Position numbers and translations under genes: made by a program. From the IMG/VR virus record IMGVR_UViG_3300002092_000022, positions 1-32,889 of that record: a stretch of 32,889 nt of DNA; one strand, 5' to 3'. Source of the DNA: a virus. Each line of letters starts with the position of its first letter. Within the stretch, counting starts at the first letter, position 1. Below the pieces are notes generated by a model that was not told the origin of the DNA, did no database searches, and was given only the letters and a program-made list of their open reading frames with translations. Positions 8,623 to 32,889 of the stretch are shown one piece after another.

Positions 8623-8645
8623 AGGACTAACTGGTTATCGACCTA

Positions 8646-15506: not shown

Positions 15507-15522
15507 TGATCTATCGGCGTGA
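15507..15522 (-). promoter_or_regulatory. Motif i, copy 1: TCACGCCGATAGATCA.
   Basis: Embedded in the inverted repeat AATCTGAT-N15-ATCAGATT. Heads the 15012/terL operon. Confidence 0.55.
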
Positions 15523-18675: not shown

Positions 18676-19233
18676 TTAACTATCGGCGTCAATTTCTTGG
18701 TTCTCTTGGATTACAGGTAACACTGGACCGATCCCGCTCAACTCATTCGCTAATCGCAGCAAGTCCGCATCGGTAACCGTGGAGACCTGCGACTGCATCG
18801 GACCGCCATCAGGGCCGCTGAGTTCAACCTTCTGAACATTCTTCCCGAACTCATCAGGCCAACCTTTTTCTAGCAAGAAAGTGTTAGCCGTAACTGAACC
18901 ATTCTTAGCAAGGACCCGAAGGTTCCCCAGGAACTCCTGCTTGTAAAACGCTCTCGCCCGCTCAATCGCGTCCACGAAGTTGACATACACGTCATTCTTA
19001 GGATTCGGACGCGCCTCTTTCGGAGTAGCAGCACGACCCTTAGCATCAAAGTCATCCCAGGCTTCCCGGATAGCAGACTCAGCATTACCAATCGACTTCC
19101 ACTTATGGAAAACCGAAGGCGAAATACCAGATAACCGAGCCGAGTCAATAATAGACATACCATTCACGACACGAGTCGTAATCTCCTCAGCCAGCTCAGC
19201 TGTAGGTTTTGGACGGAAAGATGATTTAGTCAT
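18676..19233 (-). CDS. terS: Terminase small subunit candidate (HTH DNA-binding protein).
   Basis: N-terminal HTH (MSIIDSARLSGISPSVFHKW) and the block ...ANTFLLEKGWPDEFG, which is typical of small terminases. Lies 3.6 kb from terL. Confidence 0.6.
   Translation of the reverse strand: MTKSSFRPKPTAELAEEITTRVVNGMSIIDSARLSGISPSVFHKWKSIGNAESAIREAWDDFDAKGRAATPKEARPNPKNDVYVNFVDAIERARAFYKQEFLGNLRVLAKNGSVTANTFLLEKGWPDEFGKNVQKVELSGPDGGPMQSQVSTVTDADLLRLANELSGIGPVLPVIQENQEIDADS
18680..18695 (-). promoter_or_regulatory. Motif i, copy 2: AAATTGACGCCGATAG.
   Basis: Lies in the last codons of terS (..EIDADS*), with 62 nt between it and the tRNA-like gene. Confidence 0.55.
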
Positions 19234-19237
19234 ACAC

Positions 19238-19260
19238 CTAATAGTGCGGGCTGGTGACGG
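19238..19260 (-). promoter_or_regulatory. Motif ii, copy d: CCGTCACCAGCCCGCACTATTAG.
   Basis: Ends 4 nt before the terS ATG, so the transcript may be leaderless or nearly so. Confidence 0.5.
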
Positions 19261-19264
19261 AAAA

Positions 19265-19324
19265 TGTTATAAATTGTTATCAGGTTTTTGTTAACACCTG
19301 TTAACCCTTGATAACTTTGATAAC
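19265..19324. repeat. Six helically phased copies of TG(T/A)TA(A/T)C.
   Basis: Copies start at 19265, 19275, 19289, 19299, 19309 and 19318 (spacings 10, 14, 10, 10, 9). The first four are in the TGTTAxC form and the last two are TGATAAC (inverted sense). Confidence 0.7.
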
Positions 19325-19347
19325 CGAAAAACACAGAAATCCAATAA

Positions 19348-19367
19348 TCACGCCGATGTATCTATCA
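19348..19367 (+). promoter_or_regulatory. Motif i, variant copy 9 on the plus strand: TCACGCCGATGTATCTATCA.
   Basis: The only plus-sense copy. It precedes the plus-strand gene at 19406. Confidence 0.4.
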
Positions 19368-19405
19368 GCAAGTCAAAAGAACTTGCACGACAGAAAGGCA
19401 GTCAG

Positions 19406-19732
19406 ATGTTTGGAACCGTGTATGTAGATACAGAAAAAGAAACTAAAGACTATATAGAAAGCAAACCAACTATCAAAGTGTGGATGGTAAATATCTTCGG
19501 CTCTTCTAAAACTTATAGAAGCAGCTTCATTTTCTTATCTGAAGAAGATGCGAAAAAATACGTTATCGAAGAATTTATAAAGAATCAATATGCAAGGTAT
19601 CTAAGTAATCTTCAAGAGGTGGGCAGGGCTCTAGTATTCTCAATGGCTAGGAATAATGATTCGATCAAATATAGACTCCGAAGTACCTTTTTAGTCACAG
19701 ACTTAGAAAGATACTTCGGAGTCTATATTTGA
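19406..19732 (+). CDS. AT-rich moron-like gene, unknown function.
   Basis: 108-aa plus-strand ORF, visibly AT-rich, followed by its own strong hairpin terminator. Confidence 0.55.
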   Translation: MFGTVYVDTEKETKDYIESKPTIKVWMVNIFGSSKTYRSSFIFLSEEDAKKYVIEEFIKNQYARYLSNLQEVGRALVFSMARNNDSIKYRLRSTFLVTDLERYFGVYI

Positions 19733-19803
19733 TAAAGCTATAAAAGTATTGAGAAATGAAGTTGAAATAATCGAAAAGTACACCTGCTAAACCCCGACAT
19801 AAA

Positions 19804-19836
19804 GAAGGCCCGCGATCATCGTGATCGCGGGCCTTC
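19804..19836. terminator. Bidirectional hairpin terminator between convergent genes.
   Basis: Perfect 15-bp stem GAAGGCCCGCGATCA/TGATCGCGGGCCTTC with a 3-nt loop. Confidence 0.8.
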
Positions 19837-19897
19837 TTGCTTGTGCGCTTTACTTTAAGGTTTTCCAGTAACTTATTCGGCTATTGAATAATTCCAG

Positions 19898-20461
19898 TTA
19901 ACCCTGCAACACTTCCACTTCAGCCATAGAGATAGCTGTTCGATACTCGATCCCCTCGACAACGAGATCCGAAGCTACTCCAAGCAGGCGAGCCCTATCG
20001 CGAGTGGGTGATTGGATTCCAGGGTCAGCCAGATTCCAAGCAACCCAAGCAGGAAGCAGTGCTCCGAAGAGCTCAGCATCAACACCATAGGTCAATGTGT
20101 TCAAGCGGTCACCAGGTATCGCGATCATCGCCTCGATATAGACGCCGTCAATATGTTGCATTGTGTCATCTATACGCACAAACTGCGTCTTAGGATCCCA
20201 AGGTGAAATAGCTTGCGTCTTAGCCAGAATTGATCGCGCGAGACGCAGTTGCTTCTCCAGTGCCTTGTCACCAGGTTCACTACAGATTCCCCAAGTGCGG
20301 ACTTCTAGGATCGCCAAGGTTTCAATGGGTCCAGAATTATGCTCGCCAATATGCCGAGAAATATGGTGACACTCTCTAACTTGCAGGGGAGTCGGGATTG
20401 TCGGGATCCCAGTCATCATATCGCGTTCAGGAAGATGCGGCCAAGGCTGTGAGTTACTCAT
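19898..20461 (-). CDS. Hypothetical protein.
   Basis: 187-aa ORF, the first gene of the leftward early block. Confidence 0.6.
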   Translation of the reverse strand: MSNSQPWPHLPERDMMTGIPTIPTPLQVRECHHISRHIGEHNSGPIETLAILEVRTWGICSEPGDKALEKQLRLARSILAKTQAISPWDPKTQFVRIDDTMQHIDGVYIEAMIAIPGDRLNTLTYGVDAELFGALLPAWVAWNLADPGIQSPTRDRARLLGVASDLVVEGIEYRTAISMAEVEVLQG

Positions 20462-20501
20462 ACCCTAAGTATACCGGCTTTTGTATATCGGGGCTATACG
20501 G

Positions 20502-20891
20502 TTACTGGTTACCAGTTACAGTGTTAGGTGTTGAGGTCTTAACAGTTACTTGAGCGGAGTTGATGTTGCGAGTCTGGTAGCCGTATTCATTGAAGCCCAA
20601 TGGTGCACTTGGATACACGGCAGGCTTGATGGCTGGAGTTGTATACACGCGCTTAGCATTCAAGCATTGACGGCACGTCCTGCGACCAGCTGAATTTACG
20701 ATCGTATTCTCTGGGGTGTATTCGTGACCCTCGGGGCACTTAGTTACTAACTGACCTGACTTTGGACCGCGACGCAAGTTATACCGAGCACGACGAGCCT
20801 CGATGCCAGTTAAGTGCTGAAGTTCCTTTAGCTTCTCAACGCGAGCCATCTCGTCCAAGTATTCGCTGTAGTCATTATTTTCGATAGCCAT
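20502..20891 (-). CDS. Zinc-ribbon / HNH-like domain protein.
   Basis: CPEGHEYTPENTIVNSAGRRTCRQC motif. Confidence 0.55.
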   Translation of the reverse strand: MAIENNDYSEYLDEMARVEKLKELQHLTGIEARRARYNLRRGPKSGQLVTKCPEGHEYTPENTIVNSAGRRTCRQCLNAKRVYTTPAIKPAVYPSAPLGFNEYGYQTRNINSAQVTVKTSTPNTVTGNQ

Positions 20892-20892
20892 T

Positions 20893-21264
20893 TTATTTGC
20901 TCCTTATTTTTCCTTTAACTTGAACACCTAGTGGCTCTAGATAAATATGAAAATCTTGAACCGGGATTTTCTTGCAACCTAATTCTTTAAGCAGTGGGTC
21001 AAAGGACCCGTTATCAAATACCCTAGAAACATCTAGCAAATTAGGATTCTTTTTTTTCTCTGGAGGCTTTCCTCTGTATATGAACTCACGGACTGTTGTA
21101 TAGAAATACGCCCACTCGCTCCCATAGAGTGATCCTTTACTGCGGTCATCAGAACAGAACTTCTGTGCATCTTCTACTGAGAGCATGAACTTGATGCCCG
21201 AGTTCTTTCCAGACTGCCCTGCGGTATAGAGGAATGCGAGATTATCCATCGTGAAAGCACTCAC
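20893..21264 (-). CDS. Hypothetical protein.
   Basis: 123-aa ORF, AT-rich, tightly packed. Confidence 0.55.
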   Translation of the reverse strand: MSAFTMDNLAFLYTAGQSGKNSGIKFMLSVEDAQKFCSDDRSKGSLYGSEWAYFYTTVREFIYRGKPPEKKKNPNLLDVSRVFDNGSFDPLLKELGCKKIPVQDFHIYLEPLGVQVKGKIRSK

Positions 21265-21545
21265 TTCTTGTCTCCTCCCATCACTAACGCAACAGCCACC
21301 TTGGTAGCCGGGTCAGCCGATGCTCTCGCTTCAACCAAGGTAGGACAGGGGTCAGAAAACTTAAATATCTCAGTCCTTGGGATTGGGTGTGAACAGTAAA
21401 AACATAAAAGACCTATACCTGATTTATCTTCACTAAATGTATAACCCCAATTACCCTCGTGTTCTCGTTCTATGGCTACCAGGTTATCCACGGCCTCCGC
21501 GGAATAAGGGACAGTGTCCATTTTGGTGTCCATTGGGCTAGTCAT
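21261..21545 (-). CDS. Small protein, paralog family member A.
   Basis: NLVAIEREHEG ... DPCPTLVEARASADPATKVAVAL. Confidence 0.6.
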   Translation of the reverse strand: MTSPMDTKMDTVPYSAEAVDNLVAIEREHEGNWGYTFSEDKSGIGLLCFYCSHPIPRTEIFKFSDPCPTLVEARASADPATKVAVALVMGGDKK

Positions 21546-21726
21546 TAAAGGCCTTCAAACCTAAAGCAGTGGCAAATACCCATATGATTGACGCATTGAA
21601 GAAAAAGAAGGCCTCGTTAGTTCTAAAGTCAGTTGTATGTTGAAAATCAAGTTGGACAAAGAATATAAAACCAACAATCAAAAAGAATTGAATAGCAAAT
21701 GTTAGATACCCAAATATTCTTTTCAT
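21538..21726 (-). CDS. Small two-TM membrane protein.
   Basis: 62 aa with two Phe-rich hydrophobic segments. Overlaps both neighbours. Confidence 0.5.
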   Translation of the reverse strand: MKRIFGYLTFAIQFFLIVGFIFFVQLDFQHTTDFRTNEAFFFFNASIIWVFATALGLKAFND

Positions 21727-22115
21727 TCTCCCACGCTCCCGTCCTCTAGTGCGACATCAGTCTTGTGTGCCTTCTTCATATTGCGGAGAGCCTTGCGAGC
21801 ACTGGATCCCGTGTGCTTTTTATAGAGTCTGTAAGCAACCAGGCGCATCCTCTTGGCTTTCTTGGTATCCCCAACGCAAGCGTTAACAAAGATGCTTGGA
21901 ATACCATCAAGGGAATCCTCATAAACCCGATGCTTAAGATCGAAGCTCGCAAGTATCAGCAGTAGTTGGATAACCGTTTCCTCGGTTACATCGGACTCAC
22001 TAACGGGCTCCTGATTGAAAGACTTGAGAGCCAGGTTTCCCCAGAACACGAGAGCGTTACCACGAAGAGTTGCGTAGCTAGTTAATTCAGCGAGATGCTT
22101 CTTTGTTCCAAGCAT
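21723..22115 (-). CDS. Hypothetical protein.
   Basis: 130-aa ORF in the operon. Confidence 0.55.
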   Translation of the reverse strand: MLGTKKHLAELTSYATLRGNALVFWGNLALKSFNQEPVSESDVTEETVIQLLLILASFDLKHRVYEDSLDGIPSIFVNACVGDTKKAKRMRLVAYRLYKKHTGSSARKALRNMKKAHKTDVALEDGSVGE

Positions 22116-22303
22116 TACGCCCTCCCGTTCTCTAGTGCGAGGTGAATAGCAACGTAATCCAGGGTCTCCTTGGAAGCCACAGCACGAGCGAGTTGAAGGG
22201 CATAATTCATGCCATGCATGATAATCGTTCTTTCCAGACTGCCCTGCCCTCTAGGCGTATTTCGTTCCAGCGCCAGCAGTATCGCTGCTGCTTCGGTATC
22301 CAT
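22115..22303 (-). CDS. Small protein, paralog family member C (short form).
   Basis: EAAAILLALERN ... LARAVASKETLDYVAIHL. Confidence 0.55.
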   Translation of the reverse strand: MDTEAAAILLALERNTPRGQGSLERTIIMHGMNYALQLARAVASKETLDYVAIHLALENGRA

Positions 22304-22304
22304 A

Positions 22305-22697
22305 TTATTTTCCTTCTTTCAATTGCTCGGCTACATAATCGAGAGTTGATTGACTCGCCACAGAACGAGCGTCCACGAGAGTAGGGCAGGGATATGTTTT
22401 CCAGAAAGTTCCATAATCATCATCGCTCAATTTGCACTCAGAGCATTCAGTAGTAAAAGGTTTTTCGTGTCTTCTTTCTGTATCTCTTTTCTTTCCTCTT
22501 TTGTGCAACTTCTCCACAGCCATTAGTATCGCTGCGGCTTCAAGGTTAACATGGGGAACCGCAACTGACTCTTGACCCATTTTGTAAGCATCATCGAAAG
22601 CACGCTTTAGAGTTTCCTTAACTCCAGGAATATCCTTGAAGTTAACTTTTACAACAATTGGCTCAGCTACATTCTCAAAGTATTCATCATTAGGCAT
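22305..22697 (-). CDS. Small protein, paralog family member B.
   Basis: EAAAILMAVEKLH ... YPCPTLVDARSVASQSTLDYVAEQL. Confidence 0.6.
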   Translation of the reverse strand: MPNDEYFENVAEPIVVKVNFKDIPGVKETLKRAFDDAYKMGQESVAVPHVNLEAAAILMAVEKLHKRGKKRDTERRHEKPFTTECSECKLSDDDYGTFWKTYPCPTLVDARSVASQSTLDYVAEQLKEGK

Positions 22698-23149
22698 TAG
22701 ATACTCCTTTTACAGTGTCTATCAAACAGAATGATTGAACCAGCTACAGCAACATTCATAGACTCTGTTCTAGAACACGGAATCTGAACAACTTGATTTA
22801 CAGAATTTAGAACTTCACTTGGCAATCCATCATCTTCAGCTCCTAATAGATACCAGGCAGATTTTGGATGGGCGAATTCTTTTAATGAGATAGCACCATT
22901 TATTAACTCAACTGCTATTAAAGGAATCTGACTATCTTTAGATGAAAGTAATTCCTCAATCGTATTGAAGTGAAGTAAAGGAATATGCTTATTTGTCTTC
23001 ATAGTATCGCTTGGTTGATTCTTATATCTTTTACCAACAGTAAATATTAAAGAAGCATCATAGAGATTTGCCGTTCTCCATAAGGTTCCCAGGTTTATAG
23101 GTGTTTTAGATCCATAGATTCCAATGGCTACATAACCCTTATTCATCAT
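22697..23149 (-). CDS. SpoU/TrmH-family (SPOUT) RNA 2'-O-methyltransferase.
   Basis: Three SPOUT motifs: NLGTLWRTANLYDA, LLGAEDDGLPSEV and IPCSRTESMNVAVAGSIILFD. Confidence 0.85.
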   Translation of the reverse strand: MMNKGYVAIGIYGSKTPINLGTLWRTANLYDASLIFTVGKRYKNQPSDTMKTNKHIPLLHFNTIEELLSSKDSQIPLIAVELINGAISLKEFAHPKSAWYLLGAEDDGLPSEVLNSVNQVVQIPCSRTESMNVAVAGSIILFDRHCKRSI

Positions 23150-23382
23150 GCACCTGCCAATTCACCGCGAACCAACCAAGCAGGATTGTGACCGATATGC
23201 CACTCATGGCACTCCCAGCAAACATAGGGGCGCAGGTTCCCCTTCCCATTCTTAGCAAGCAACCGAGCAGCAACCTTCGCACCACTACGATTGAAATAAG
23301 CACGCTTGCCAGTAACACAATTCACGTGCGAATACTGAAGCGCAGGACGCTCCACTTTCATTTTACGGCGCGCAGTTTTCAC
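23146..23382 (-). CDS. Small basic zinc-ribbon-like protein.
   Basis: 78 aa with the C-terminal motif [13 protein letters not shown]. Confidence 0.5.
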
Positions 23383-23714
23383 TTGGTGCCACCCTTCTTA
23401 TCATTGAAGGGAACAGCACGGCGAAGGTTCTCGGCATTAGTAACAGCCTCAAGGTGCTTTGGATTCACGCAAGCACGATTACGGCAAAGGTGATCCAGGA
23501 CTAAGTTGGTATCTGGTGAACCATAAGCAAGCGAGTAAGCCAAACGATGCGCACGAATAGCACGACCTGCTAACCAGATATAGCCATAGCCGCGATCATT
23601 CTTAGCACCAGTCCACTCGTGGCAACCGGTTACCTTGTTCTTTAATACTTTGTTTTCGAATCTGATATTAGCTTTAGTATCAAGCGTTGTAGCCATTTGT
23701 TGAGCGAGACTCAT
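23379..23714 (-). CDS. HNH endonuclease.
   Basis: [16 protein letters not shown]...AHRLAY...[21 protein letters not shown]. Confidence 0.85.
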
Positions 23715-23757
23715 TTTGTTTTCCTTTGATCATCTATAGGCCTCCCTGACCTACACC

Positions 23758-23777
23758 TGATCTATCGGCGTCAATTT
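23758..23777 (-). promoter_or_regulatory. Motif i, copy 3: AAATTGACGCCGATAGATCA.
   Basis: 47 nt lie between GCCGATAG and the HNH gene ATG. It directly follows a terminator. Confidence 0.65.
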
Positions 23778-23800
23778 GTGATTTACGGGAAAATGTTTGC

Positions 23801-23843
23801 AAAAAGAAATCCGCCCCGGGAGAAAGGTTAAGAACCGGGGCGG
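23801..23843 (-). terminator. Rho-independent terminator.
   Basis: CCGCCCCGG / CCGGGGCGG 9-bp stem followed by ATTTCTTTTT on the minus strand. Confidence 0.85.
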
Positions 23844-23860
23844 AAGATTATTGCGTTGTG

Positions 23861-24505
23861 TTACTTGATTAGCAGGTTAAGCCCTAACGCGACTAAAGAA
23901 ATAAAGAAGGCGACTGAAGCTAATACAAGTGGTACTTTGCTTTGCTCGTTAGAAGGAATATGGTAAAACACAGGATTGACCAATTTAACTTCATCATCCT
24001 GCTTCTCTTTAACATTCCACTCAATGTAGCTTTCGTCAGCACAGATGTGCTTTACGCGAAGTTGACCGACCTCGCTGAATTTATCGTAGGCACCAGGGCT
24101 CCAGGTCTTCCAAGTCTCACCATCATCAGTTGAATACTCGGTAAGCGGATCATTAGCAATCGCATAAGCATCGTGATCACAAGAAGCATTGGACTTCTTG
24201 GATTCCCTAAGAGCAGCGCCAATCTCATCGAGGAATGAGAAGTAGATATCGCCGTTAATACCGGTGAGCTTTACAATATACGACACGGGAGTAGATTCGA
24301 TTTTGATTACACCAATAGAGTGAAGGAAATCCCCTTCCTCAACCGTGAGACCTGAAGGAAGAATAAAGTTGGGCTCGGTATTAGGTGATAATTCTTCTAA
24401 GGCAATCTCAATGTCATCCAAATCTTCTTGAACATGATCGATGAATGCTTGTATTTCTAACTTAGCTTCTTTACTTAATGGCGCCGCTACTTTTGCTTCA
24501 CTCAT
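23861..24505 (-). CDS. Tail-anchored membrane protein, unknown function.
   Basis: 214 aa with an acidic N-terminus and a C-terminal TM segment (VPLVLASVAFFISLVALGLNLLI). Confidence 0.6.
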   Translation of the reverse strand: MSEAKVAAPLSKEAKLEIQAFIDHVQEDLDDIEIALEELSPNTEPNFILPSGLTVEEGDFLHSIGVIKIESTPVSYIVKLTGINGDIYFSFLDEIGAALRESKKSNASCDHDAYAIANDPLTEYSTDDGETWKTWSPGAYDKFSEVGQLRVKHICADESYIEWNVKEKQDDEVKLVNPVFYHIPSNEQSKVPLVLASVAFFISLVALGLNLLIK

Positions 24506-24596
24506 TTTCTTTGCCTCTCTTATTTCTGTCGGGGATGTTTTTTGTTATACTTGTTATACTTCGGCTTAGTCGTCTGCGAGAATGTCGTCCCAGTTA

Positions 24597-24776: not shown

Positions 24777-24796
24777 TGATCTATCGGCGTGAATTT
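24777..24796 (-). promoter_or_regulatory. Motif i, copy 4: AAATTCACGCCGATAGATCA.
   Basis: 49 nt upstream of the ATG at 24731. Confidence 0.6.
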
Positions 24797-24827
24797 CAAG
24801 AAATCGCAAGAAATCTCAAAAATCTTT

Positions 24828-25688
24828 TTATAGGTTTTCGGACTCAAGATCCCAGTCACGCTTCTCATCCGCGGCTAGTGCACCCTTAAGAGGCTTATTG
24901 GCGAACAGAGTGTTGAGAGCCAGAGTGATTCGATTTCCGTTGATGTTTTGACCGTTTCTAGCCAGCCAGTTAATTGCTTTAGAGAGAGCTTCTATTGAAG
25001 GCTTGTATTCCTCTGGGCGGTCATCTTCTAGGATCAGTTTTATTTGCCTAATAACTGCTTTTTGGGATTCCCCTGATTGTTTTGCGTATGGCAACCAATT
25101 TTCATAAGCAATCTTCTTCGCGATCACATCAGCAGAATGAGGGGTTTCTCTCGTTATATGACTCTGGTTATATGACTCTGATTTGTACCGCACTGGTGCG
25201 GGGTTCGGTTCCGCATCCTTGCGGGGTTCGGTTCCGCATCCTTGCGGATCCTTAGCACGTCCAGCAAGGTTGCGTGCCACGTCTTCGGCTGGAACCCCGG
25301 CGATCAACTCAACTTCTTGAGCCTCTTCTTCAACGGTTTCAGTAGCAGTATTAGGGTTCACCCAGGTAGCCGGGCGAGCGGAGCGCACTGTGTATAGGTT
25401 GCTTGTCCACTCGTTGCCGTCTTTGCGTTGTTGCTTGCAGGTAAGAGCGCCGATTGCCATTAGTTCTTTAGCGGCACGTGCAACGGTATCTATTGAGCAT
25501 CGCATTCTATTTGCGAGTGTTTCTTGCTTTGGGAAGCAGGTGCCCTGTGCGTTGGCGTAGCGATTCAATAGTGCATATAAGCGGATTGCATTAGCTGAGA
25601 TATCGGAATCCAGAATCCATTCCGGCAAGATTGCGAAGTATTCATCAGCATTGAGTTTGTGTTGCTTCTTTGTTGATTCGGTGTTCAC
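24828..25688 (-). CDS. Replication initiator / replisome organiser candidate with an N-terminal winged-helix (HTH_36-like) domain.
   Basis: FAILPEWILDSDISANAIRLYALLNRYANAQGTCFPKQETLANRMRCSIDTVARAAKELMAIGAL. GTG start. Tandem repeats lie in its linker. Confidence 0.7.
   Translation of the reverse strand: MNTESTKKQHKLNADEYFAILPEWILDSDISANAIRLYALLNRYANAQGTCFPKQETLANRMRCSIDTVARAAKELMAIGALTCKQQRKDGNEWTSNLYTVRSARPATWVNPNTATETVEEEAQEVELIAGVPAEDVARNLAGRAKDPQGCGTEPRKDAEPNPAPVRYKSESYNQSHITRETPHSADVIAKKIAYENWLPYAKQSGESQKAVIRQIKLILEDDRPEEYKPSIEALSKAINWLARNGQNINGNRITLALNTLFANKPLKGALAADEKRDWDLESENL
25153..25180. repeat. Perfect 14-bp tandem duplication (GTTATATGACTCTG x2) inside the initiator gene.
   Basis: Read directly. 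The two copies are translated in different frames. Confidence 0.9.
25198..25243. repeat. Perfect 23-bp tandem duplication (GCGGGGTTCGGTTCCGCATCCTT x2, plus a partial third copy) inside the initiator gene.
   Basis: Read directly. Each unit contains short GCGG/CCGC inverted repeats. The copies are translated in different frames. Confidence 0.9.
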
Positions 25689-25731: not shown

Positions 25732-25751
25732 TGATCTATCGGCGTCAATTT
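25732..25751 (-). promoter_or_regulatory. Motif i, copy 5: AAATTGACGCCGATAGATCA.
   Basis: 47 nt upstream of the initiator GTG. It starts directly after the stop of the upstream gene. Confidence 0.65.
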
Positions 25752-26297
25752 CTATTTAGTGATGCGCTCTACCTTAATTATGTTGAAGGGAGCCATTACT
25801 TGATTACTGTGGTGTTCAGCTGCTTCTGCTACTTTGATGAGTTTCGTGCGAGCAGAGAATGTTGTTCCTTGTAGTGTGTGTAATCCGCCTAGAGCGAGTG
25901 TTTCGCCTGAACCAATGGCTTCATAGGGATCCAGGGATTCCCCGATGTGATAATCAGGTTGGACGTTAAAGATGTGTCCATCTAGTCCTACGAGGATTGG
26001 GTATAGCTCTCCATCGCTCTTGCGTAAGGCTGTTTTGATTGACTCGATGAAGGTTGTTCGCATGAAGCGTTCGATAGCGATTCGTCCTGTGTATACAGGC
26101 GGTTCCCATATGTGTTGAAGGATTTCACCTGTCCTAAATGATCCAGCGAAGCCGATGCCGTATTGACCGCGAATAAATACCTTGGGATCCTTTCGGACGC
26201 CTCTAATAATGTCGTCTTCTGTTGTCGGTATAGCGGCGCTATCTCCGAGCATATAAATGTTGCCTCGGGCATCTTTAATAGCGGCTATTAGTGTCAT
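25752..26297 (-). CDS. Proteasome beta / HslV-like Ntn-hydrolase.
   Basis: MT-LIAAIKDARGNIYMLGDSA (Thr1, Asp17), a candidate Lys33 equivalent in the RKDPKVF segment, and AIGSGETLALG (Ser129-Gly130 equivalents). Confidence 0.7.
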   Translation of the reverse strand: MTLIAAIKDARGNIYMLGDSAAIPTTEDDIIRGVRKDPKVFIRGQYGIGFAGSFRTGEILQHIWEPPVYTGRIAIERFMRTTFIESIKTALRKSDGELYPILVGLDGHIFNVQPDYHIGESLDPYEAIGSGETLALGGLHTLQGTTFSARTKLIKVAEAAEHHSNQVMAPFNIIKVERITK

Positions 26298-26315: not shown

Positions 26316-26335
26316 CTATCTATCGGCATGAGTTT
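26316..26335 (-). promoter_or_regulatory. Motif i, copy 6: AAACTCATGCCGATAGATAG.
   Basis: 22 nt upstream of the Ntn-hydrolase ATG. Confidence 0.55.
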
Positions 26336-26402: not shown

Positions 26403-27302
26403 ATGGCAAACAAGGGGAGCGAGCGGGATCCCCTGCGGCCCTTCCTTCGTTGGGCTGGCGGTAAGCGGAAACTGCTACCGACGCTGTTGAGCCTTGTGCC
26501 AGAGGATCACTCTCCTAAGGCTCGCGTGTATGAGCCGTTTCTCGGAGGCGGTGCCTTCTCGATTGCGATGGCTTCCCAAGGGATACCAGGCAGGAGCCTC
26601 TACCTCAACGACAGCAACCCTGATTTAGTTTTGGCATACCAGGCAATCCGTGATGAGCCAAGGAAGTTGATGACCCGGCTCGACAAGATTTCTCAACATC
26701 TTAACCAGGACGAGTATTTAGCCGTCAGAGCAGCACGTCCGAAGGACTCAATTGAGAGAGCCGCTCGCTTCATCTACTTGAACCGAACTTGCTTTAATGG
26801 ACTATGGCGCGTCAATTCGTCTGGTGAATTCAATGTGCCTTTTGGCAAGCTTGATAATCCGCTTATCTATGATGCTGATAATTTTCTAGCGCTTCATCAA
26901 GTATTACAGAAGGCGACTGTTACCTCAGTCGGTTTTGCTAACGCAGTTGAGTCAGCGCGTCCGGGAGACCTTGTATACCTGGATCCTCCATACCTTCCAC
27001 TAACGACGACAGCTTCATTCTCTGCTTATGCGCGTGATGGATTTGGATTGCTTGATCATTATGCGCTTGCTGGAGTTATTGCTGGGCTTAGTGATCGCGG
27101 AGTTAAGGTGATCCTGTCTAACTCGGATACCCCTGCGACCCGCAAGATCTTCGGTGAAGTCTTGGACCTTCACACTATATCTGTAGCGCGGAGTATCTCT
27201 GCTAAGGCTTCTTCTCGCGGCAATGTTGGAGAATTGATCGGTGTTAACTATGCGATCCCGGTTGCATCAGCGCTGCGCGAAAGTAGGATTGCCTCCACTT
27301 AA
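26403..27302 (+). CDS. Dam-family (D12 class) N6-adenine DNA methyltransferase.
   Basis: FLRWAGGKRKLLP, EPFLGGGAF (AdoMet-binding motif) and LDPPY (catalytic motif). Confidence 0.9.
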   Translation: MANKGSERDPLRPFLRWAGGKRKLLPTLLSLVPEDHSPKARVYEPFLGGGAFSIAMASQGIPGRSLYLNDSNPDLVLAYQAIRDEPRKLMTRLDKISQHLNQDEYLAVRAARPKDSIERAARFIYLNRTCFNGLWRVNSSGEFNVPFGKLDNPLIYDADNFLALHQVLQKATVTSVGFANAVESARPGDLVYLDPPYLPLTTTASFSAYARDGFGLLDHYALAGVIAGLSDRGVKVILSNSDTPATRKIFGEVLDLHTISVARSISAKASSRGNVGELIGVNYAIPVASALRESRIAST

Positions 27303-27319
27303 CTTTCTTCGGAGGCGTA

Positions 27320-27766
27320 ATGGTTCCACGGGACACAACAACTGGAACCGCTTATGAAGCGATAGTCGAAACTTGTATCACTCGGGCATCCAAGAAGTAC
27401 GGCTACGATGCGCAGCAGCACGTCAATATCGGCGTGAAACCAGGTGGCGGTAATCATATTATCGACTGGGAATTATCGGATAAGAATGATCCTGATCGAC
27501 GTGCATTAGTATCTTGTAAGTATCAGGGAACCTCTGGAACCGCTGAAGAGAAGATCGCATATGAAGTAATCAAGTTGTTACACGCTATGAAGATGAATCC
27601 AATATACAAGCACGCGTGGCTTGTTATGGGCGGCACTGGTTGGAGTCCCGGCATGGTTGAGTTCGTTAAGAATCACTTGTTTGAATGGATACCGGAAGCC
27701 AAAGGGAAGATCACTATCTTCACTTCTACCGACGAGTTAGTTACTACCGAGATTCAGATACCCTAG
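27320..27766 (+). CDS. Small nuclease candidate (possible type II restriction endonuclease partner of the MTase).
   Basis: 148 aa, starts 17 nt after the MTase stop with GGAGG 5 nt upstream of its ATG. The IIDWE...LVSCKYQGTSGTAEEK stretch is loosely PD-(D/E)xK-like. The fold is not confirmed. Confidence 0.4.
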   Translation: MVPRDTTTGTAYEAIVETCITRASKKYGYDAQQHVNIGVKPGGGNHIIDWELSDKNDPDRRALVSCKYQGTSGTAEEKIAYEVIKLLHAMKMNPIYKHAWLVMGGTGWSPGMVEFVKNHLFEWIPEAKGKITIFTSTDELVTTEIQIP

Positions 27767-28459
27767 AGATGATTGCTTAATCTCTGCTTGAAGTATTTCT
27801 ATAGCTTCCGCTTCTAATTTTTTAACTGTTTCTACGTTCATCTGAAAACGTTTTGCTATTTCTGCTGTTGTCTTCATGCTTCCAGTAGTAAACCCAAAGC
27901 GAAGGTCAATCACCTTGCGTTGCCGTGGATTCAGGTGAACCAATGCCGCTCTGATTTCCCTATACATTTCTGCTGTCATGGCTTCCATCTCAGGCGTCTC
28001 CTCTTGATCGTTGTGTGAGTCGTATTTTTCGATTTCGATGAAGCCATCATGTTGATATGGCCAAAGTTCAATAACTTTCTTCTTGCTGAATTTTAAGTAA
28101 CTAGCTACAGCGTCAATCGTGTTATGCCCAAGTTTTACTGCTTCACGTATCTTGCGTAGTTCTGGTTCCAATTTATCTGGAATCCGTACAAGCAAAAGTG
28201 ATTTCTTATACTCATCATCTAACTCATACTTGATGATCAATCGCGCGTATGCGGAGAAAGGACCGCGAGTCTTATCCCACTTCTGAGCAGCAAGACAGAG
28301 CCCTATATATGCTTGAGAGGTTAGTTGCTGGTTCTCCAGGTCATCTTGATAACCACCGGTTTTCTTCCAGTAACTTTTAGCCATCGACTCAGCAATCCAG
28401 AGGTTCTCTTCTACCAGTGCTTGCTGTGCCTTAGTGAGCTTCTTTGGATTACTGGGCAT
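27737..28459 (-). CDS. Sigma-70 family sigma factor, group 3 (FliA/SigD/WhiG-like in size and architecture).
   Basis: Region 2 (LVEENLWIAESMAKSY...AYIGLCLAAQKWDKTRGPFSAYARLIIKYEL), region 3 (VRIPDKLEPELRKIREAV) and region 4 (LNPRQRKVIDLRFGF...TAEIAKRFQMNVETVKKLEAEAIEIL). Confidence 0.85.
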   Translation of the reverse strand: MPSNPKKLTKAQQALVEENLWIAESMAKSYWKKTGGYQDDLENQQLTSQAYIGLCLAAQKWDKTRGPFSAYARLIIKYELDDEYKKSLLLVRIPDKLEPELRKIREAVKLGHNTIDAVASYLKFSKKKVIELWPYQHDGFIEIEKYDSHNDQEETPEMEAMTAEMYREIRAALVHLNPRQRKVIDLRFGFTTGSMKTTAEIAKRFQMNVETVKKLEAEAIEILQAEIKQSSLGYLNLGSN

Positions 28460-28691
28460 AGGTTTGGACAGGATTCACCGTGAAGTAATCCGACATCTTC
28501 AAGTCAGCACCGAGGAGATCTTCTAGTTGCTGAGCGAAGATTGGGATGAAGCTATCTAGCGGTTGGTCGCTTAGGTTCGCATCGGTTGCCTGGTAGGTAA
28601 AGGTTCGATACTCGATTTCCTTTACGCGGTTCTCGACATCTTCTCTGAATCGTGCGCTATCAAAAGTAGCGTCTACCATCTCAACTGCCAT
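28449..28691 (-). CDS. Acidic 80-aa protein, unknown function, co-transcribed with the sigma factor.
   Basis: Overlaps the sigma gene start by 11 nt. AGGAGG lies 6 nt upstream of its ATG. Confidence 0.55.
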   Translation of the reverse strand: MAVEMVDATFDSARFREDVENRVKEIEYRTFTYQATDANLSDQPLDSFIPIFAQQLEDLLGADLKMSDYFTVNPVQTYAQ

Positions 28692-28703
28692 TGCGTGCCT
28701 CCT

Positions 28704-28724
28704 ATATAGGTGTGTTACCTATAT
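28704..28724. promoter_or_regulatory. 8-5-8 palindrome ATATAGGT-GTGTT-ACCTATAT (operator candidate).
   Basis: Read directly. It lies between the promoter-like motif at 28721-28740 and the RBS of the 80-aa/sigma operon. Confidence 0.55.
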
Positions 28725-28740
28725 CTATCGGCATCGCTTT
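28721..28740 (-). promoter_or_regulatory. Motif i, copy 7: AAAGCGATGCCGATAGATAT.
   Basis: 33 nt upstream of the ATG of the 80-aa/sigma operon. TAAA lies 16 nt upstream of GCCGATAG. Confidence 0.6.
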
Positions 28741-28766
28741 TATAATTCTTTATAGTTTTTAGATTT

Positions 28767-28793
28767 GTTAGATATGTTAGATATGTTAGATAT
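28767..28793. repeat. Three perfect tandem copies of GTTAGATAT.
   Basis: Read directly. A degenerate TAGAT lies just upstream at 28760-28764. The last copy ends on the first base of the xis stop-codon triplet (28793-28795). Confidence 0.85.
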
Positions 28794-28978
28794 CAGTAAT
28801 CCGCCCCAGCGTCGGCCCACTTAGCAAGGTAGTTGTCGATGTCCTCGCGTGTGTAGCGGACGAGTCGTCCTATGCGATGGCAGGGGAAGATTCCCATTGT
28901 CGTGTGACGCCGGATAGTGATGAGGCTGAGGTTTAGAAGTGTTGCTACCTGGTCTGCTGTGTATGCGATGTTTTCCAT
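28793..28978 (-). CDS. xis: Excisionase-family HTH (MerR/AlpA-like) DNA-binding protein.
   Basis: YTADQVATLLNLSLITIRRHTTMGIFPCHRIGRLVRYTREDIDNYL. Adjacent to attP and int. Confidence 0.7.
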   Translation of the reverse strand: MENIAYTADQVATLLNLSLITIRRHTTMGIFPCHRIGRLVRYTREDIDNYLAKWADAGADY

Positions 28979-29027
28979 ACGGCAGCCATCGGCGCCCTGT
29001 TACACTCAGCCAGCGAAAAAAAGACTG

Positions 29028-29049
29028 TTGCCCTATCTTTTGCCCTATC
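29028..29049 (+). repeat. Left arm repeats: TTGCCCTATC x2, 12-bp period.
   Basis: Read directly (29028-29037 and 29040-29049). Confidence 0.85.
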
Positions 29050-29111
29050 TACGGACATGCCCTGATATCTCAGGACATCTCAAGATAGAAAAAGCAGTAA
29101 ATATCGCTATT

Positions 29112-29157
29112 GCGCTCGTAGCTCAACGGATAGAGCTTCTGACTTCGGATCAGTGGG
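29112..29157 (+). other. tRNA-Arg(UCG)-like 5' half: acceptor 5' strand, D arm and anticodon arm. No T arm.
   Basis: GCGCTCG-TA-GCTC-AACGGATA-GAGC-T-TCTGA-CTTCGGA-TCAGT. The downstream sequence has no T arm or acceptor 3' strand. Confidence 0.65.
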
Positions 29158-29187
29158 TTTACTTAGAGATTAAGTTGATAAGAAACT

Positions 29188-30654: not shown

Positions 30655-30936
30655 CTAATTGGTTCCCAAGTATTTGTCGGTGTTTCCGCTCATCCCGTTG
30701 AGTATCTGGTAGACGCGTGCTTTCTTGACGCCGATCATTTGTCCTATCTCATCGTAGGAGTATCCATTGGCTACGAGTTCGGTGACTGCTTCCCTTCGGA
30801 TTACTTTGGCATCCATTTCAGCAGCTGCTAGTGAGAGTAGGAGTTGTGTTGCTTCGGTTGCTCGCTTCTCTGGGTTGGGGATCTTGGTGAGCCTTGTGAG
30901 CTGGGCTTTAATCTGGTCACGTTTCTCCGTTGCCAT
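30655..30936 (-). CDS. HTH DNA-binding protein directly upstream of int, a possible lysogeny regulator.
   Basis: ELVANGYSYDEIGQMIGVKKARVYQIL. Its stop abuts the int start. Confidence 0.6.
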   Translation of the reverse strand: MATEKRDQIKAQLTRLTKIPNPEKRATEATQLLLSLAAAEMDAKVIRREAVTELVANGYSYDEIGQMIGVKKARVYQILNGMSGNTDKYLGTN

Positions 30937-32185: not shown

Positions 32186-32195
32186 ATATCGGCGG
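32186..32195 (-). promoter_or_regulatory. Motif i, weak copy 8: CCGCCGATAT.
   Basis: 45 nt upstream of the ATG at 32140. Confidence 0.4.
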
Positions 32196-32318: not shown

Positions 32319-32889
32319 TTACGCGTATGTCCAGATCTGGCCGCCACGAACGCAAGCTGCGAAACGGTTACCCGCAGCGTTACTTGTAGCGCAGTTCCAT
32401 ACACTGGAACCAGCTCCAGCCTGAGCCGTCCAAGAAGATCCAGTGTTCGTTGAGACTTGAAGGAATCCCGTGCCGTTAGGAGCGACTATCAAGATTGTTC
32501 CAGTCGAGTCAATGCCGAAGGATCTGGTGCCAGGGTTACCAGGGTTAGGGGAACCAGCAATAAGCGACCAAGTTGAACCATGGTTAGTTGATTGATCGAT
32601 ACCTGATCCACTCATCGCGAAGAATTGTAATGAGCCGCTCGCATTGGACGCCGCCCAGTTGTCATTATTAGTTGAGTGAATAAGATTAGTTGATCGTGTA
32701 AATGATGTTCCAGTATTGGTTGAGTAGTAGGTAGCACCAGATACGGCGTTATCGAAGACGCCAACGAATACATATTGACCGGTTGAGTCGCAAGCCATGC
32801 CAACTGGGTTCATTGTTCCGCCAGGGTTGCTTCCAAGTGTTATAGCAGTAAACGATGTTCCACTATTAGTTGATTTATCTACCACGCCA
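32319..32889 (-). CDS. C-terminal part of the same Asp-box/BNR-like repeat fibre protein.
   Basis: Repeated S-T-N-x-G-[ST]-[ST]-[FW] motifs (STNSGTSF, STNTGTSF, STNHGSTW, STNTGSSW), each preceded by a CDSTGQY-type strand. Suggests a beta-propeller. Confidence 0.85.
   Translation of the reverse strand, partial: GVVDKSTNSGTSFTAITLGSNPGGTMNPVGMACDSTGQYVFVGVFDNAVSGATYYSTNTGTSFTRSTNLIHSTNNDNWAASNASGSLQFFAMSGSGIDQSTNHGSTWSLIAGSPNPGNPGTRSFGIDSTGTILIVAPNGTGFLQVSTNTGSSWTAQAGAGSSVWNCATSNAAGNRFAACVRGGQIWTYA
32789..32889. repeat. Terminal direct repeat, copy 2 (identical to 1-101).
   Basis: Same 101-nt string as bases 1-101. Confidence 0.95.

What the first reader, a model, noticed from the sequence alone, without database searches (positions are those of the whole stretch)
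27737..28740. Phage-encoded FliA-sized sigma factor behind its own candidate promoter, an operator-like palindrome and an acidic partner gene
Seen:
- A 240-aa ORF with recognisable sigma regions 2, 3 and 4.
- It is translationally overlapped (11 nt) by an upstream 80-aa acidic ORF.
- The operon is preceded by motif copy 7 (28721-28740), which overlaps an 8-5-8 palindrome (28704-28724).

Inference: this could be a positive autoregulatory loop, in which the sigma reads its own promoter. The palindrome would be bound by a lysogeny repressor to gate the loop. The acidic protein could be an anti-sigma or co-factor.

A temperate phage that brings a sigma-28-like factor together with a matching promoter set is a compact, testable regulatory system.
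Basis: partly seen in the sequence, partly recalled or inferred. Interest (0 to 1): 0.7.

Follow-up and report, generated by a model that had tools for sequence, protein, structure and literature searches.

The report
Phage sigma factor with matching promoters
A temperate phage carries a short sigma factor of a previously undescribed family, and its genes, including the sigma gene, sit behind a conserved ACGCCGATA promoter-like element that recurs in every relative carrying this sigma; this is a new variant of a known phage strategy, not a flagellar-type sigma with a repressor operator.

Summary

- **Sigma type.** The 240-aa protein is a three-domain sigma-70-family factor. By HMM, PDB profile and fold it is a truncated primary-like (group 1/2) sigma, not FliA/WhiG. 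It belongs to a small family of 220-240-aa sigmas with no close cultured-phage relative.
- **Promoter-like motif.** (G/C)AC-GCCGATA-(G/T)AT occurs in about 8 gene-sense copies in the window, against 0.15 expected for the 9-mer. It also occurs in all six sigma-bearing lineages I could fetch (GC 35-66%, sigma identity 27-55%). It lies upstream of start codons and several times just after terminators.
- **Start-site geometry.** A GCCGATG-N8-ATG arrangement with no Shine-Dalgarno precedes the neighbouring xis-like gene in four lineages. This places the start site 15 nt from the G, the same geometry as sigma-28 promoters. The sigma-28 -35 (TAAA) is absent.
- **Autoregulation.** In each lineage the sigma gene lies behind such an element, so positive autoregulation is plausible.
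- **Palindrome.** It is one of many promoter-proximal hairpins with unrelated sequences and compensatory changes. It is more likely a 5'-leader RNA stem-loop than an operator.
- **80-aa acidic gene.** It is real and under purifying selection, but lineage-restricted and of unknown function.

The parts
27737..28459 (-). Sigma factor gene, 240 aa. Domains sigma2, sigma3 and sigma4 with a disordered 3.2 linker; no region 1.
   Evidence: ORF. Pfam and NCBIfam matches, PHROG 351. AF2 model, Foldseek, PDB profile search.
28449..28691 (-). 80-aa acidic gene (pI 4.05), translationally coupled to sigma by an 11-nt overlap at 28449-28459.
   Evidence: The only homologue is P0170 (86% identical, same overlap). 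Substitutions by codon position are 8/4/18, with 15 synonymous against 11 non-synonymous codon changes.
28723..28735 (-). Class-1 promoter-like element of the sigma operon, GAT-GCCGATA-GAT. The position -2/-1 reads AT instead of the consensus AC.
   Evidence: The homologous element lies upstream of sigma in L085/L001, L196, L191 and L192.
28704..28724 (-). 8-5-8 palindrome overlapping the predicted start site (about 28717). Best read as a promoter-proximal or 5'-leader hairpin.
   Evidence: Pairing is kept in L196 (TATAGGTG-12-CACTTATA, with one G.U pair) and in L085 (TAGGTA-7-TACCTA).
28698..28703 (-). Shine-Dalgarno AGGAGG of the 80-aa gene.
   Evidence: Read directly.
28759..28793 (-). Tandem 9-mers TATCTAACA x3.9 immediately upstream of the sigma promoter. 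Candidate regulator-binding sites.
   Evidence: TRF; this is one of only 6 arrays in the window. L196 has AATCTAACA x2 and L085 has ATATAACAA x5 at the same place.
28793..28978 (-). Xis-like HTH_17 gene, 61 aa, a syntenic partner of sigma.
   Evidence: Pfam HTH_17 and TIGR01764. It lies directly upstream of sigma in L085, L191, L192 and L196.
28987..28993 (-). Variant element GCCGATG exactly 8 nt before the xis ATG, with no SD. Predicted promoter of a leaderless mRNA.
   Evidence: GCCGATG-N8-ATG is found in the window, L085, L191 and L192.
26318..26330 (-). Class-1 element upstream of the HslV-like peptidase gene (25752-26297).
25734..25746 (-). Class-1 element upstream of the replication initiator gene (24828-25688).
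   Evidence: Its hairpin is scored.
24779..24791 (-). Class-1 element upstream of a small ORF and the 214-aa gene.
23760..23772 (-). Class-1 element upstream of the HNH gene operon, about 30 nt after a terminator-like hairpin (about 23800-23843).
18678..18690 (-). Class-1 element (GACGCCGATAGTT) at the end of ORF 18676-19233, facing a 423-nt non-coding gap.
15509..15521 (-). Class-1 element at the head of the terminase-portal-head-tail gene array.
32187..32193 (-). Weaker GCCGATA copy upstream of the 92-aa gene and the exonuclease gene. The homologous site in L085 (2064) is a full ACGCCGATA.

Best explanation
The window is the excised form of a temperate siphovirus. Its early and middle genes, and the terminase-portal-head-tail gene array, are transcribed by host core RNA polymerase carrying a phage-encoded sigma factor.

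**The sigma (shown).** It is a 240-aa protein with sigma2, sigma3 and sigma4 and no region 1. It descends from primary-like sigmas but has a diverged region 2.3-2.4 in which the sigma-70 W433/W434 pair is replaced.

**The promoter element (inferred function).** I infer that the sigma recognises a compact element, (A-rich)-(G/C)AC-GCCGATA-(G/T)AT. Transcription would start about 15 nt downstream of the first G. This is the same -10 sequence and geometry as sigma-28 promoters, but without their TAAA -35.

**The feedback loop (inferred).** The sigma gene lies behind one such element, so once some sigma is made the operon can feed back positively. The first sigma presumably comes from read-through or from a host-read promoter elsewhere.

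**Special features of the sigma promoter (shown).**
- It has a non-consensus -2/-1.
- It has an array of 9-nt direct repeats just upstream, which are better candidates for a gating regulator than the palindrome.

**The palindrome (inferred function).** It is one instance of a general rule. Transcripts from these promoters begin with a stem-loop, most simply a 5'-terminal stabiliser.

**The neighbouring genes.**
- The adjacent xis-like gene is made as a leaderless mRNA from a GCCGATG variant of the element.
- The acidic 80-aa protein is translated first, and sigma is translationally coupled to it. It is an accessory found in only some lineages. It may bind sigma, host sigma or RNA polymerase; its function is not established.
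For: **Sigma identity and class**
- The family consists of 220-240-aa proteins.

**Motif enrichment and placement in the window**
- The copies lie in the gaps 23-34 nt, and in one case 176 nt, before start codons.
- No sigma-70-type promoters lie in those gaps; the region has 17 matches against 26 expected.

**The same element in every sigma-bearing lineage fetched**
- L001/L085: GC 0.41, sigma 47% identical. ACGCCGATA occurs 4 times against 0.04 expected in L085.
- L002/L196: GC 0.35, sigma 54% identical.
- L191: GC 0.59, sigma 27% identical. 3 copies against 0.06 expected.
- L192: GC 0.66, sigma 33% identical.
- L193: GC 0.52, sigma 29% identical. 2 copies against 0.05 expected.
- All copies are gene-sense and intergenic.

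**Sigma behind the element in each lineage**
- Shown. In L193 the element heads the 497-aa + sigma operon.

**Independent transcription units**
- Terminator-like hairpins lie directly upstream of elements in the window (about 23800-23843), L001, L191 and L192. The downstream genes therefore need their own promoter.

**Start-site geometry**
- GCCGATG-N8-ATG without an SD precedes the xis-like gene in four lineages.
- The P. aeruginosa fliC sigma-28 promoter is numbered (-15)GCCGATAA(-8) (PMC12784957).

**Controls**
- 26 IMG/VR phages with HslV-like or Rep homologues but no such sigma lack the extended element.
- Scans of IMG/VR with 14- and 15-nt versions gave only single matches per stretch, and no family sigma nearby.

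**Hairpins**
- Across 22 sites the mean z is -1.69. At 16 of 22 sites the first paired base is within -3..+3 of the predicted start.
- The consensus hairpin of five homologous leaders keeps 39 of 40 pair cells and shows 2 compensatory pairs.
Against: - No transcript or binding data exist. The sigma-to-element link rests on co-occurrence in lineages that were found by searching with the sigma itself.
- The element's core equals the sigma-28 (FliA/SigD/WhiG) -10, which is itself conserved across phyla (PMC8325347). A host sigma could therefore explain conservation across GC contents.
- No conserved -35 was found for a sigma that keeps a sigma4 domain. There is only a weak TTG excess, 4 of 24 sites against 1.1 expected.
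- A second conserved intergenic motif, GACRCYAGCCCGCACTATTA, precedes head, tail and lysis genes. It could be the true target of the phage sigma.
- Some hairpin left arms begin 4-7 nt upstream of the predicted start, including the sigma promoter itself. The RNA reading therefore does not fit every copy cleanly.
- A purely self-dependent sigma promoter needs an ignition source, and none was identified.
Confidence: 0.6

Rival explanations
1. The GCCGATA elements are read by the host's own sigma-28-family factor (FliA, SigD or WhiG). The phage sigma then serves another promoter class, for example the GCCCGCACTATTA sites before the head, tail and lysis genes.
For: - The core is identical to the universal sigma-28 -10, GCCGATAA.
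- The inferred start-site spacing is the same.
- A second motif class sits before the late genes and needs a reader.
- The window's sigma promoter happens to have TAAA 16 nt upstream.
Against: - TAAA at sigma-28 spacing is present at only 1 of 24 sites, against 1.4 expected by chance. It is not conserved at the homologous sigma promoters of L196 and L085.
- The conserved AC just upstream of the core (15 of 24 sites) and the GAT just downstream are not recalled as sigma-28 consensus features. That is from my own knowledge, not a test.
- Tying all early and replication genes to a flagellar or developmental sigma would restrict infection to a host sub-state.
- The element tracks the phage sigma family across GC 35-66%.
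Confidence: 0.17
2. The repeated asymmetric element is not a promoter. It is a binding site for a phage DNA-binding protein, either a repressor that blocks elongation (as with mycobacteriophage L5 'stoperators') or the conserved HTH_17 protein.
For: - The sites are asymmetric, about 13 nt long, lie in short intergenic gaps and are all oriented with transcription.
- The HTH_17 protein is a conserved neighbour of sigma. It is 90% identical between the window and L085, and 45-48% identical to L191 and L192.
Against: - The core is invariant across lineages whose proteins have diverged to 27-55% identity. From general knowledge, repressor-operator pairs usually diversify for immunity.
- Several sites follow terminators, so a new promoter is required there.
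- The fixed N8 spacing to an SD-less ATG fits a start-site-defining element.
- A phage that encodes a sigma must have cognate promoters, and this is the only motif shared by all lineages.
Confidence: 0.08
3. One reading: the 8-5-8 palindrome at 28704-28724 is a DNA operator for a dimeric lysogeny repressor that gates the sigma promoter.
For: - The palindrome is perfect, with all pairs Watson-Crick, and spans about -7 to +14 of the predicted start, a classical repression position.
- Its left arm starts upstream of the predicted start, so the full stem may not be present in the RNA.
- The sigma promoter is otherwise special.
Against: - The inter-arm distance is 5, 7 and 12 nt in three lineages, and the right arm shifts while pairing is kept, with a G.U pair in L196.
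- The other class-1 promoters carry hairpins of unrelated sequence at the same place, with compensatory changes.
- No CI-like repressor was identified in the window.
- The window holds 93 comparable inverted repeats.
Confidence: 0.1

Closest known systems
Phage-encoded sigma factors that redirect host RNA polymerase to phage promoters (Bacillus phage SPO1 gp28 and gp33/34; phage phiEco32 gp36; T4 gp55)
   Same: - A small phage sigma replaces the host sigma on the host core enzyme.
- It reads a phage-specific promoter consensus repeated in front of phage operons.
- The protein matches PHROG 351, 'RNA polymerase sigma factor'.
   Different: - There is no close sequence relationship. The best cultured-phage hit is 34% identity over half the protein, to Synechococcus phage S-CBWM1.
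- This phage is temperate, and sigma sits next to attP and xis.
- The element precedes early and replication genes and the sigma gene itself, not only late genes.
- The promoter core equals the sigma-28 -10.
FliA/SigD/WhiG (sigma-28, group 3) and its promoters (TAAA-N15-GCCGATAA)
   Same: - The protein is of similar size, with the three domains sigma2, sigma3 and sigma4.
- The -10 core is GCCGATA.
- The inferred spacing from the -10 to the start site is the same.
   Different: - TIGR02479 scores 31 bits against a cutoff of 190.
- The family profile scores 95 bits to SigA/HrdB against 55-63 to FliA.
- The Y-to-P stretch of region 2.3-2.4 is 24 residues, as in my recalled sigma-70 sequence; my recalled E. 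coli FliA sequence gives 21. This hand alignment is a lead, not a tool result.
- There is no TAAA -35.
- There is no FlgM-like partner.
Primary-like sigmas (group 1/2: SigA, HrdB, SigB, RpoS)
   Same: - These give the best HMM, profile and fold matches over regions 2-4.
- The RFGFTTG motif of region 4.1 resembles the RFGLTDG of SigA.
   Different: - Regions 1.1 and 1.2 and the non-conserved region are absent.
- The W433/W434 equivalents are replaced.
- The region 4.2 recognition-helix residues differ from those I recall for sigma-70.
- All scores are far below the family cutoffs; RpoD_Cterm scores 58 against 354.
5'-terminal stem-loops that stabilise bacterial and phage mRNAs (for example the ompA leader and Bacillus 5' stabilisers)
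   Same: Hairpins begin within a few nucleotides of the predicted 5' end. Their sequences are variable and pairing is kept by compensatory and G.U changes.
   Different: Function was not tested. Some stems would start upstream of the predicted start site. One (L191 4191) looks like an intrinsic terminator or attenuator.

Membership tests
Sigma-70 family (any group) | Sigma2 and sigma4 domains detectable by curated models | tested here: met
   TIGR02937 scores 77.7 bits against a cutoff of 42.9. PF04545 scores 42.9 against 24.1. PF04542 scores 22.9, just under 24.
Sigma-70 family (any group) | Fold of sigma2-sigma3-linker-sigma4 as in holoenzyme structures | tested here: met
   The AF2 model has pLDDT 85.5. 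The Foldseek top 50 are nearly all sigma chains, mostly from RNAP complexes, with probability 1.00. TM-scores are low (about 0.33) because the domain arrangement differs.
FliA/WhiG (sigma-28, group 3) | Score above the TIGR02479 subfamily cutoff | tested here: not met
   31.1 bits against a cutoff of 189.6. In the PDB profile search FliA chains rank below SigA, RpoS and RpoH.
FliA/WhiG (sigma-28, group 3) | Cognate promoters with -35 TAAA about 15 nt upstream of GCCGATAA | tested here: not met
   The -10 core is present, but TAAA at 14-17 nt spacing is found at 1 of 24 sites against 1.4 expected.
FliA/WhiG (sigma-28, group 3) | FlgM or RsiG-type anti-sigma partner | not tested
   The 80-aa protein has no Pfam, NCBIfam or PHROG hit and no fold match. 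No specific comparison with FlgM was made.
Group 1/2 primary-like sigma | Region 1.2 (and 1.1 for group 1), plus a score above the RpoD/SigA/RpoS cutoffs | tested here: not met
   The protein starts at region 2.1. The best scores are 55-72 bits against cutoffs of 354-554.
ECF sigma (group 4) | Only sigma2 and sigma4, with no sigma3 domain | tested here: not met
   Helices 95-135 align to region 3 of SigA. PF07638 scores 16.1 against 21.1.
Phage sigma with cognate promoter set | A repeated phage-specific promoter consensus co-occurring with the sigma gene | tested here: met
   Six lineages carry both. Relatives without the sigma lack the element.
Phage sigma with cognate promoter set | Sigma-dependent initiation at those sites | not testable with these tools
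   This needs in vitro transcription or 5'-end mapping.
Repressor operator (dimer-binding palindrome) | Conserved half-sites at fixed spacing across relatives | tested here: not met
   The loop is 5, 7 or 12 nt and the right arm is displaced and altered.
Leaderless mRNA | Start codon at the transcription start, no SD, promoter at a fixed distance | tested here: inconclusive
   GCCGATG-N8-ATG without an SD is found in four lineages. The actual 5' end is not mapped.

The most novel reading that the evidence does not exclude
This sigma family has converged on the -10 specificity and start-site geometry of the host's sigma-28 (FliA/SigD/WhiG), and that creates cross-talk. Host sigma-28 activity, which reflects motility or differentiation state, could give the first weak firing of the sigma promoter. 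That would ignite a self-sustaining sigma loop which acts as the phage's lytic switch. In the other direction, the phage sigma could fire host sigma-28-type promoters.
Probability: 0.1. Interest if true: 0.8.

Novelty: new variant of a known kind. Interest (0 to 1): 0.55.

Why it matters
- **A ready orthogonal transcription system.** The finding defines a compact unit: a roughly 230-aa sigma, a promoter of about 13-18 nt, leaderless and hairpin-led transcripts. It comes with a ready-made comparative set of six lineages.
- **A temperate phage built around its own sigma.** Most lytic operons and the sigma gene appear wired to the phage's own sigma. That raises the testable idea of a sigma feedback loop as part of the lysis-lysogeny decision.
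- **A test case for how sigma specificity evolves.** A primary-like sigma appears to use the GCCGATA core otherwise known from group 3 sigmas.
- **A correction for annotation.** A label of 'FliA-like' for this gene would be wrong.

Tried and rejected
- **Host identification and prophage relatives.** The genome-contig scan returned only housekeeping RpoD/SigA genes at 25-30% identity.
- **Metagenome scan.** It added one close relative, L085. The rest were housekeeping sigmas.
- **IMG/VR scans.**
  - The scan with the sigma alignment found nothing close.
  - The scans with HslV-like and Rep alignments found 26 loci, none with the sigma or the extended motif.
  - The scan with the HTH_17 alignment found two unrelated loci.
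- **IMG/VR motif scans.** GCCGATAGATATAGG gave 24 single hits and ACGCCGATAGATCA gave at least 119 single hits. All are consistent with chance. L218, which has two 9-mers, carries them in unrelated sequence with no homology to the window.
- **Cultured phages.** There was no DNA match. The portal protein is only 29-32% identical to Streptomyces phage portals.
- **The 80-aa protein.** Its AF2 model is poor (pLDDT 64) and the Foldseek search found nothing with E below 1.
- **Rfam.** Nothing in the window reached a gathering score.
- **Search for a CI-like repressor.** Ten ORFs in 17351-24505 and at 32319-32885 gave no useful Pfam hit.
- **Single-subunit phage RNA polymerase.** I considered this because both motif classes are contiguous blocks next to the start site. 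I rejected it because no candidate gene exists. The 707-aa ORF gives only a weak, sub-threshold PG_binding_1 hit and lies at the end of the tail module, and the 142-aa ORF next to it is tail-fibre-like.
- **Literature.** A search for the motif string found only primers and unrelated sequences.
Full report
**1. Observation**

- ORF 27737-28459(-) encodes 240 aa. ORF 28449-28691(-) encodes 80 aa. They overlap by 11 nt.
- Read on the minus strand, the upstream gap runs in this order:
  - three and a half TATCTAACA repeats;
  - an A/T-rich stretch;
  - GAT-GCCGATA-GAT at 28723-28735;
  - the palindrome ATATAGGT-AACAC-ACCTATAT at 28704-28724;
  - AGGAGG at 28698-28703;
  - the ATG at 28691.
- The 80-aa product is acidic, with pI 4.05.
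- The motif is enriched over shuffles. GCCGATA occurs 12 times against 3.2 expected, 10 of them on the minus strand. ACGCCGATA occurs 6 times against 0.15.
- The palindrome alone is not statistically remarkable. The window holds 93 comparable inverted repeats.

**2. Context**

The window is a siphovirus-type temperate phage.
- On the minus strand it encodes terminase, portal, protease, major head protein, tape measure and endolysin.
- It also encodes a replication initiator, an HslV-like peptidase, an exonuclease, a tyrosine integrase and an xis-like HTH_17 protein.
- A Dam-class methyltransferase and a PD-(D/E)XK nuclease lie on the plus strand between sigma and the next minus-strand operon. 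This cassette is absent from relatives L001 and L085.
- Between xis and int lies half of a tRNA gene (29113-29160), next to direct CCCTATCT repeats. This looks like attP. The sequence is therefore the excised or virion form of the phage, not an integrated prophage.
- No cultured phage is close.

**3. The sigma**

- *Curated models.* They place it in the sigma-70 family: TIGR02937 scores 77.7 bits and Sigma70_r4 scores 42.9. The best specific similarities are to primary-like sigmas at 55-72 bits (cyanobacterial RpoD type, RpoS, RpoD C-terminal half). FliA/WhiG scores 31 bits against a cutoff of 190.
- *Homologues.* An exhaustive HMMER search of 1.8 billion representatives found only 54 proteins below E = 1e-10. 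Among the strongest hits, most of the top twenty are stand-alone 220-240-aa proteins, with longer multidomain sigmas mixed in. These short proteins align end to end, with conserved ELWPY and RFGFTTGxPM motifs.
- *PDB comparison.* The family profile scores 95 bits to actinobacterial and firmicute SigA/HrdB/SigB. It scores 76 to RpoS, 64 to RpoH and 55-63 to FliA. In that alignment the sigma-70 W433/W434 positions are not tryptophan.
- *Structure.* The AlphaFold model (pLDDT 85.5) shows sigma2 helices, sigma3 helices at 95-135, a disordered 139-152 linker and sigma4. Foldseek returns mainly group 1/2 sigmas in RNAP initiation complexes.
- *Conclusion.* 'FliA-sized' is correct. 'Sigma-28-like' is not supported at the protein level.

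**4. The motif is a conserved promoter-like element linked to this sigma family**

*In the window.* The gene-sense copies share (G/C)A(C/T)-GCCGATA-GAT preceded by AAAWT.
- They lie at 15509-15521, 18678-18690, 23760-23772, 24779-24791, 25734-25746, 26318-26330 and 28723-28735, with a weaker one at 32187-32193.
- They occupy the gaps in front of the terminase array, the HNH operon, the Rep gene, the HslV-like gene and the sigma operon.
- Sigma-70-type promoter matches are not enriched in that region (17 against 26 expected), and none lies in these gaps.

*In relatives.* I fetched every contig I could for family members.

| Locus | GC | Sigma identity to window |
|---|---|---|
| L001/L085 | 0.41 | 47% |
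| L002/L196/L197 | 0.35 | 54% |
| L191 | 0.59 | 27% |
| L192 | 0.66 | 33% |
| L193-195 | 0.52 | 29% |

All carry (S)AC-GCCGATA-W in intergenic gaps, in gene sense, 25-60 nt before start codons. Against shuffles, ACGCCGATA occurs 4 times against 0.04 expected in L085, 3 against 0.06 in L191, and 2 against 0.05 in L193.

*The sigma gene lies behind the element in each lineage.*
- It is directly behind in L191 and in L085/L001.
- It is behind via the 80-aa gene in the window and L196.
- It is behind a GCCGATG variant in L192.
- It is the second gene of the operon in L193.

*Terminators precede several elements.* Terminator-like hairpins lie immediately upstream of elements in the window (about 23800-23843), L001, L191 and L192. 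The downstream genes therefore need a new promoter there.

*Controls.*
- Twenty-six IMG/VR phages with HslV-like or Rep homologues but without this sigma lack the extended element.
- Scans of IMG/VR with 14-15-nt versions found only single matches per stretch and no family sigma.

**5. Start-site geometry**

- In the window, L085, L191 and L192, the xis-like HTH_17 gene begins exactly 8 nt after a GCCGATG element, with no Shine-Dalgarno. L002 has GCCGATA-N8-ATG.
- If the A of the ATG is the first transcribed base, the element occupies -15 to -9.
- That is the numbering reported for the P. aeruginosa sigma-28 fliC promoter, (-15)GCCGATAA(-8) (PMC12784957).
- The element therefore resembles a sigma-28 -10 in both sequence and spacing.
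- The sigma-28 -35 (TAAA; PMC8325347) is found at the right distance at only 1 of 24 sites, which is chance level. That single site is not conserved in the homologous promoters of relatives.
- The AC just upstream of the core is present at 15 of 24 sites.
- There is a weak TTG excess 17-21 nt upstream, 4 of 24 sites against 1.1 expected.

I conclude that the phage sigma is the more likely reader and host sigma-28 is the main rival.

**6. The palindrome**

- I folded 40 nt starting at -4 of the predicted start for 22 elements. The mean z was -1.69. At 16 of 22 sites the first paired base fell within -3..+3 of the predicted start.
- The stems have unrelated sequences.
- Homologous leaders show compensatory changes:
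  - TGCAAG/CTTGCA in L085 against TGCGAG/CTCGCA in L001;
  - TAGG/CCTA in the window at 23763, TAGG/CTTA (a G.U pair) in the window at 25737, and TAAG/CTTA in L001.
- A five-sequence consensus hairpin keeps 39 of 40 pair cells, with two compensatory pairs.
- At the sigma promoter itself, the window, L085 and L196 keep pairing with loops of 5, 7 and 12 nt. L196 uses a G.U pair. The lineage-specific base after GGT (G in L196, A in L085) is matched by C or T in the right arm.
- This pattern does not fit a dimer operator. It fits a strand-specific structure, most simply a 5'-leader stem-loop.
- Caveat: at the sigma promoter the left arm starts at about -7, so the full stem would need an earlier start. 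A DNA-level role is not excluded.

**7. What is special about the sigma promoter**

- In the three close lineages it has AT or GC instead of AC before the core.
- It is preceded by a tandem array of 9-mers: TATCTAACA x3.9 in the window, AATCTAACA x2 in L196, and ATATAACAA x5 in L085.
- The window has only six tandem arrays in all.
- These repeats are the better candidates for regulator binding.

**8. The 80-aa gene**

- Its only homologue is 86% identical and has the same 11-nt overlap.
- Substitutions are concentrated at third codon positions (8/4/18 by position), so it is a real gene. It is better conserved than sigma, which is 54% identical between the same two lineages.
- It is absent from L001/L085, L191, L192 and L193.
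- There is no family hit and no confident fold.
- No SD precedes the sigma ATG, so sigma translation probably depends on coupling to it. That is an inference.
- Its function as an anti-sigma, an inhibitor of host RNA polymerase or a co-factor remains open.

**9. Verdict**

- A phage sigma with a matching promoter set and a plausible positive loop: yes.
- A sigma-28-type protein and a repressor operator: no.

Phage sigma factors with cognate promoters are a known kind. The new elements are these:
- the sigma family itself;
- its temperate-phage setting next to attP and xis;
- a primary-like sigma paired with a GCCGATA core;
- the leaderless xis;
- the hairpin-led transcripts.

Noticed in passing
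window 6711-6724, 9816-9829, 17315-17328, 19239-19252 (all minus strand); in-gene copy 13869-13882: A second conserved intergenic motif, GAC(R)C(Y)AGCCCGCACTATTA, lies before a tail-region gene, the major head gene, the endolysin gene and ORF 18676-19233. At that last ORF it is only 5 nt from the ATG. It gives 8 hits at up to 3 mismatches against 2.3 expected. It may be a second (late) promoter class, and its reader is unknown.
   Followed up: partly
window 29113-29160 (+) and 29028-29050: The 5' half of a tRNA gene (anticodon loop CTTCGGA, possibly Arg-UCG) lies between xis and int. Next to it is a CCCTATCT direct repeat. This is probably the attP core and Int arm-type sites. ARAGORN finds no complete tRNA.
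   Followed up: partly
window 27427-27435 (-): An exact ACGCCGATA lies inside the plus-strand PD-(D/E)XK nuclease gene, in antisense orientation. If active it would drive antisense transcription through the restriction-modification cassette towards the HslV-like operon.
   Followed up: no
window 26403-27766 (+): A D12-class adenine methyltransferase and a PD-(D/E)XK nuclease form a likely restriction-modification cassette between sigma and the next operon. It is present in the window and L003 but absent from L001 and L085.
   Followed up: partly
window 18253-18675, especially 18528-18609 (-): A 423-nt non-coding gap lies downstream of a class-1 element. It contains a tRNA-like T-arm (GGTTCGAGTCC) and a terminator-like GGGGGCTTTTT. 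Rfam gives only sub-threshold tRNA-like hits (mascRNA 22.8 bits, tRNA 18.1 bits).
   Followed up: partly
L085 5900-6065 and L001 265-430: In this lineage the sigma frame has no ATG, GTG or TTG before residue ~45. An ATC sits where the window has the 80-aa gene's ATG, at the same SD spacing. It opens a short frame (IAKPNK-stop) whose sequence continues the sigma N-terminus if one base is skipped at AAA_TAA_G. This could be a +1 frameshift or non-canonical initiation. The sequence is identical in two independent assemblies.
   Followed up: partly
window 25148-25247 and L085 7800-7883: Tandem 14-nt and 23-nt (window) or 24-nt (L085) repeats lie inside the replication-initiator gene. They are probably origin iterons.
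   Followed up: no
window 30655-30936 (-): The 93-aa HTH protein next to the integrase has weak similarity to sigma region 4 (Sigma70_r4_2 E = 0.002, TIGR02937 18.9 bits, PHROG sigma-factor families). It is conserved in L085 at 64% identity. It could be a transcription accessory factor.
   Followed up: no
window 24792-24825 and 24542-24561: A 10-nt tandem array (x3.5) lies directly upstream of the class-1 element at 24779-24791. A GTATAACAA x2.2 array, related to the 9-mers at the sigma promoter of L085, lies before the 214-aa gene.
   Followed up: no
L191 4191-4245: In this high-GC relative one class-1 element is followed at once by a 12-13-bp G+C-rich stem and a T-run (AAGAAGGCTGGCC...GGCCAGCCTTCTTTTCG). 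This is a terminator-like attenuator between the promoter and its gene.
   Followed up: no
window 8586-8645 (-): A strong intrinsic-terminator-like hairpin (GGGGTGG...CCACCCCCATTTTT) lies right after the major head gene. That gene is therefore bracketed by a class-2 motif and a terminator.
   Followed up: no
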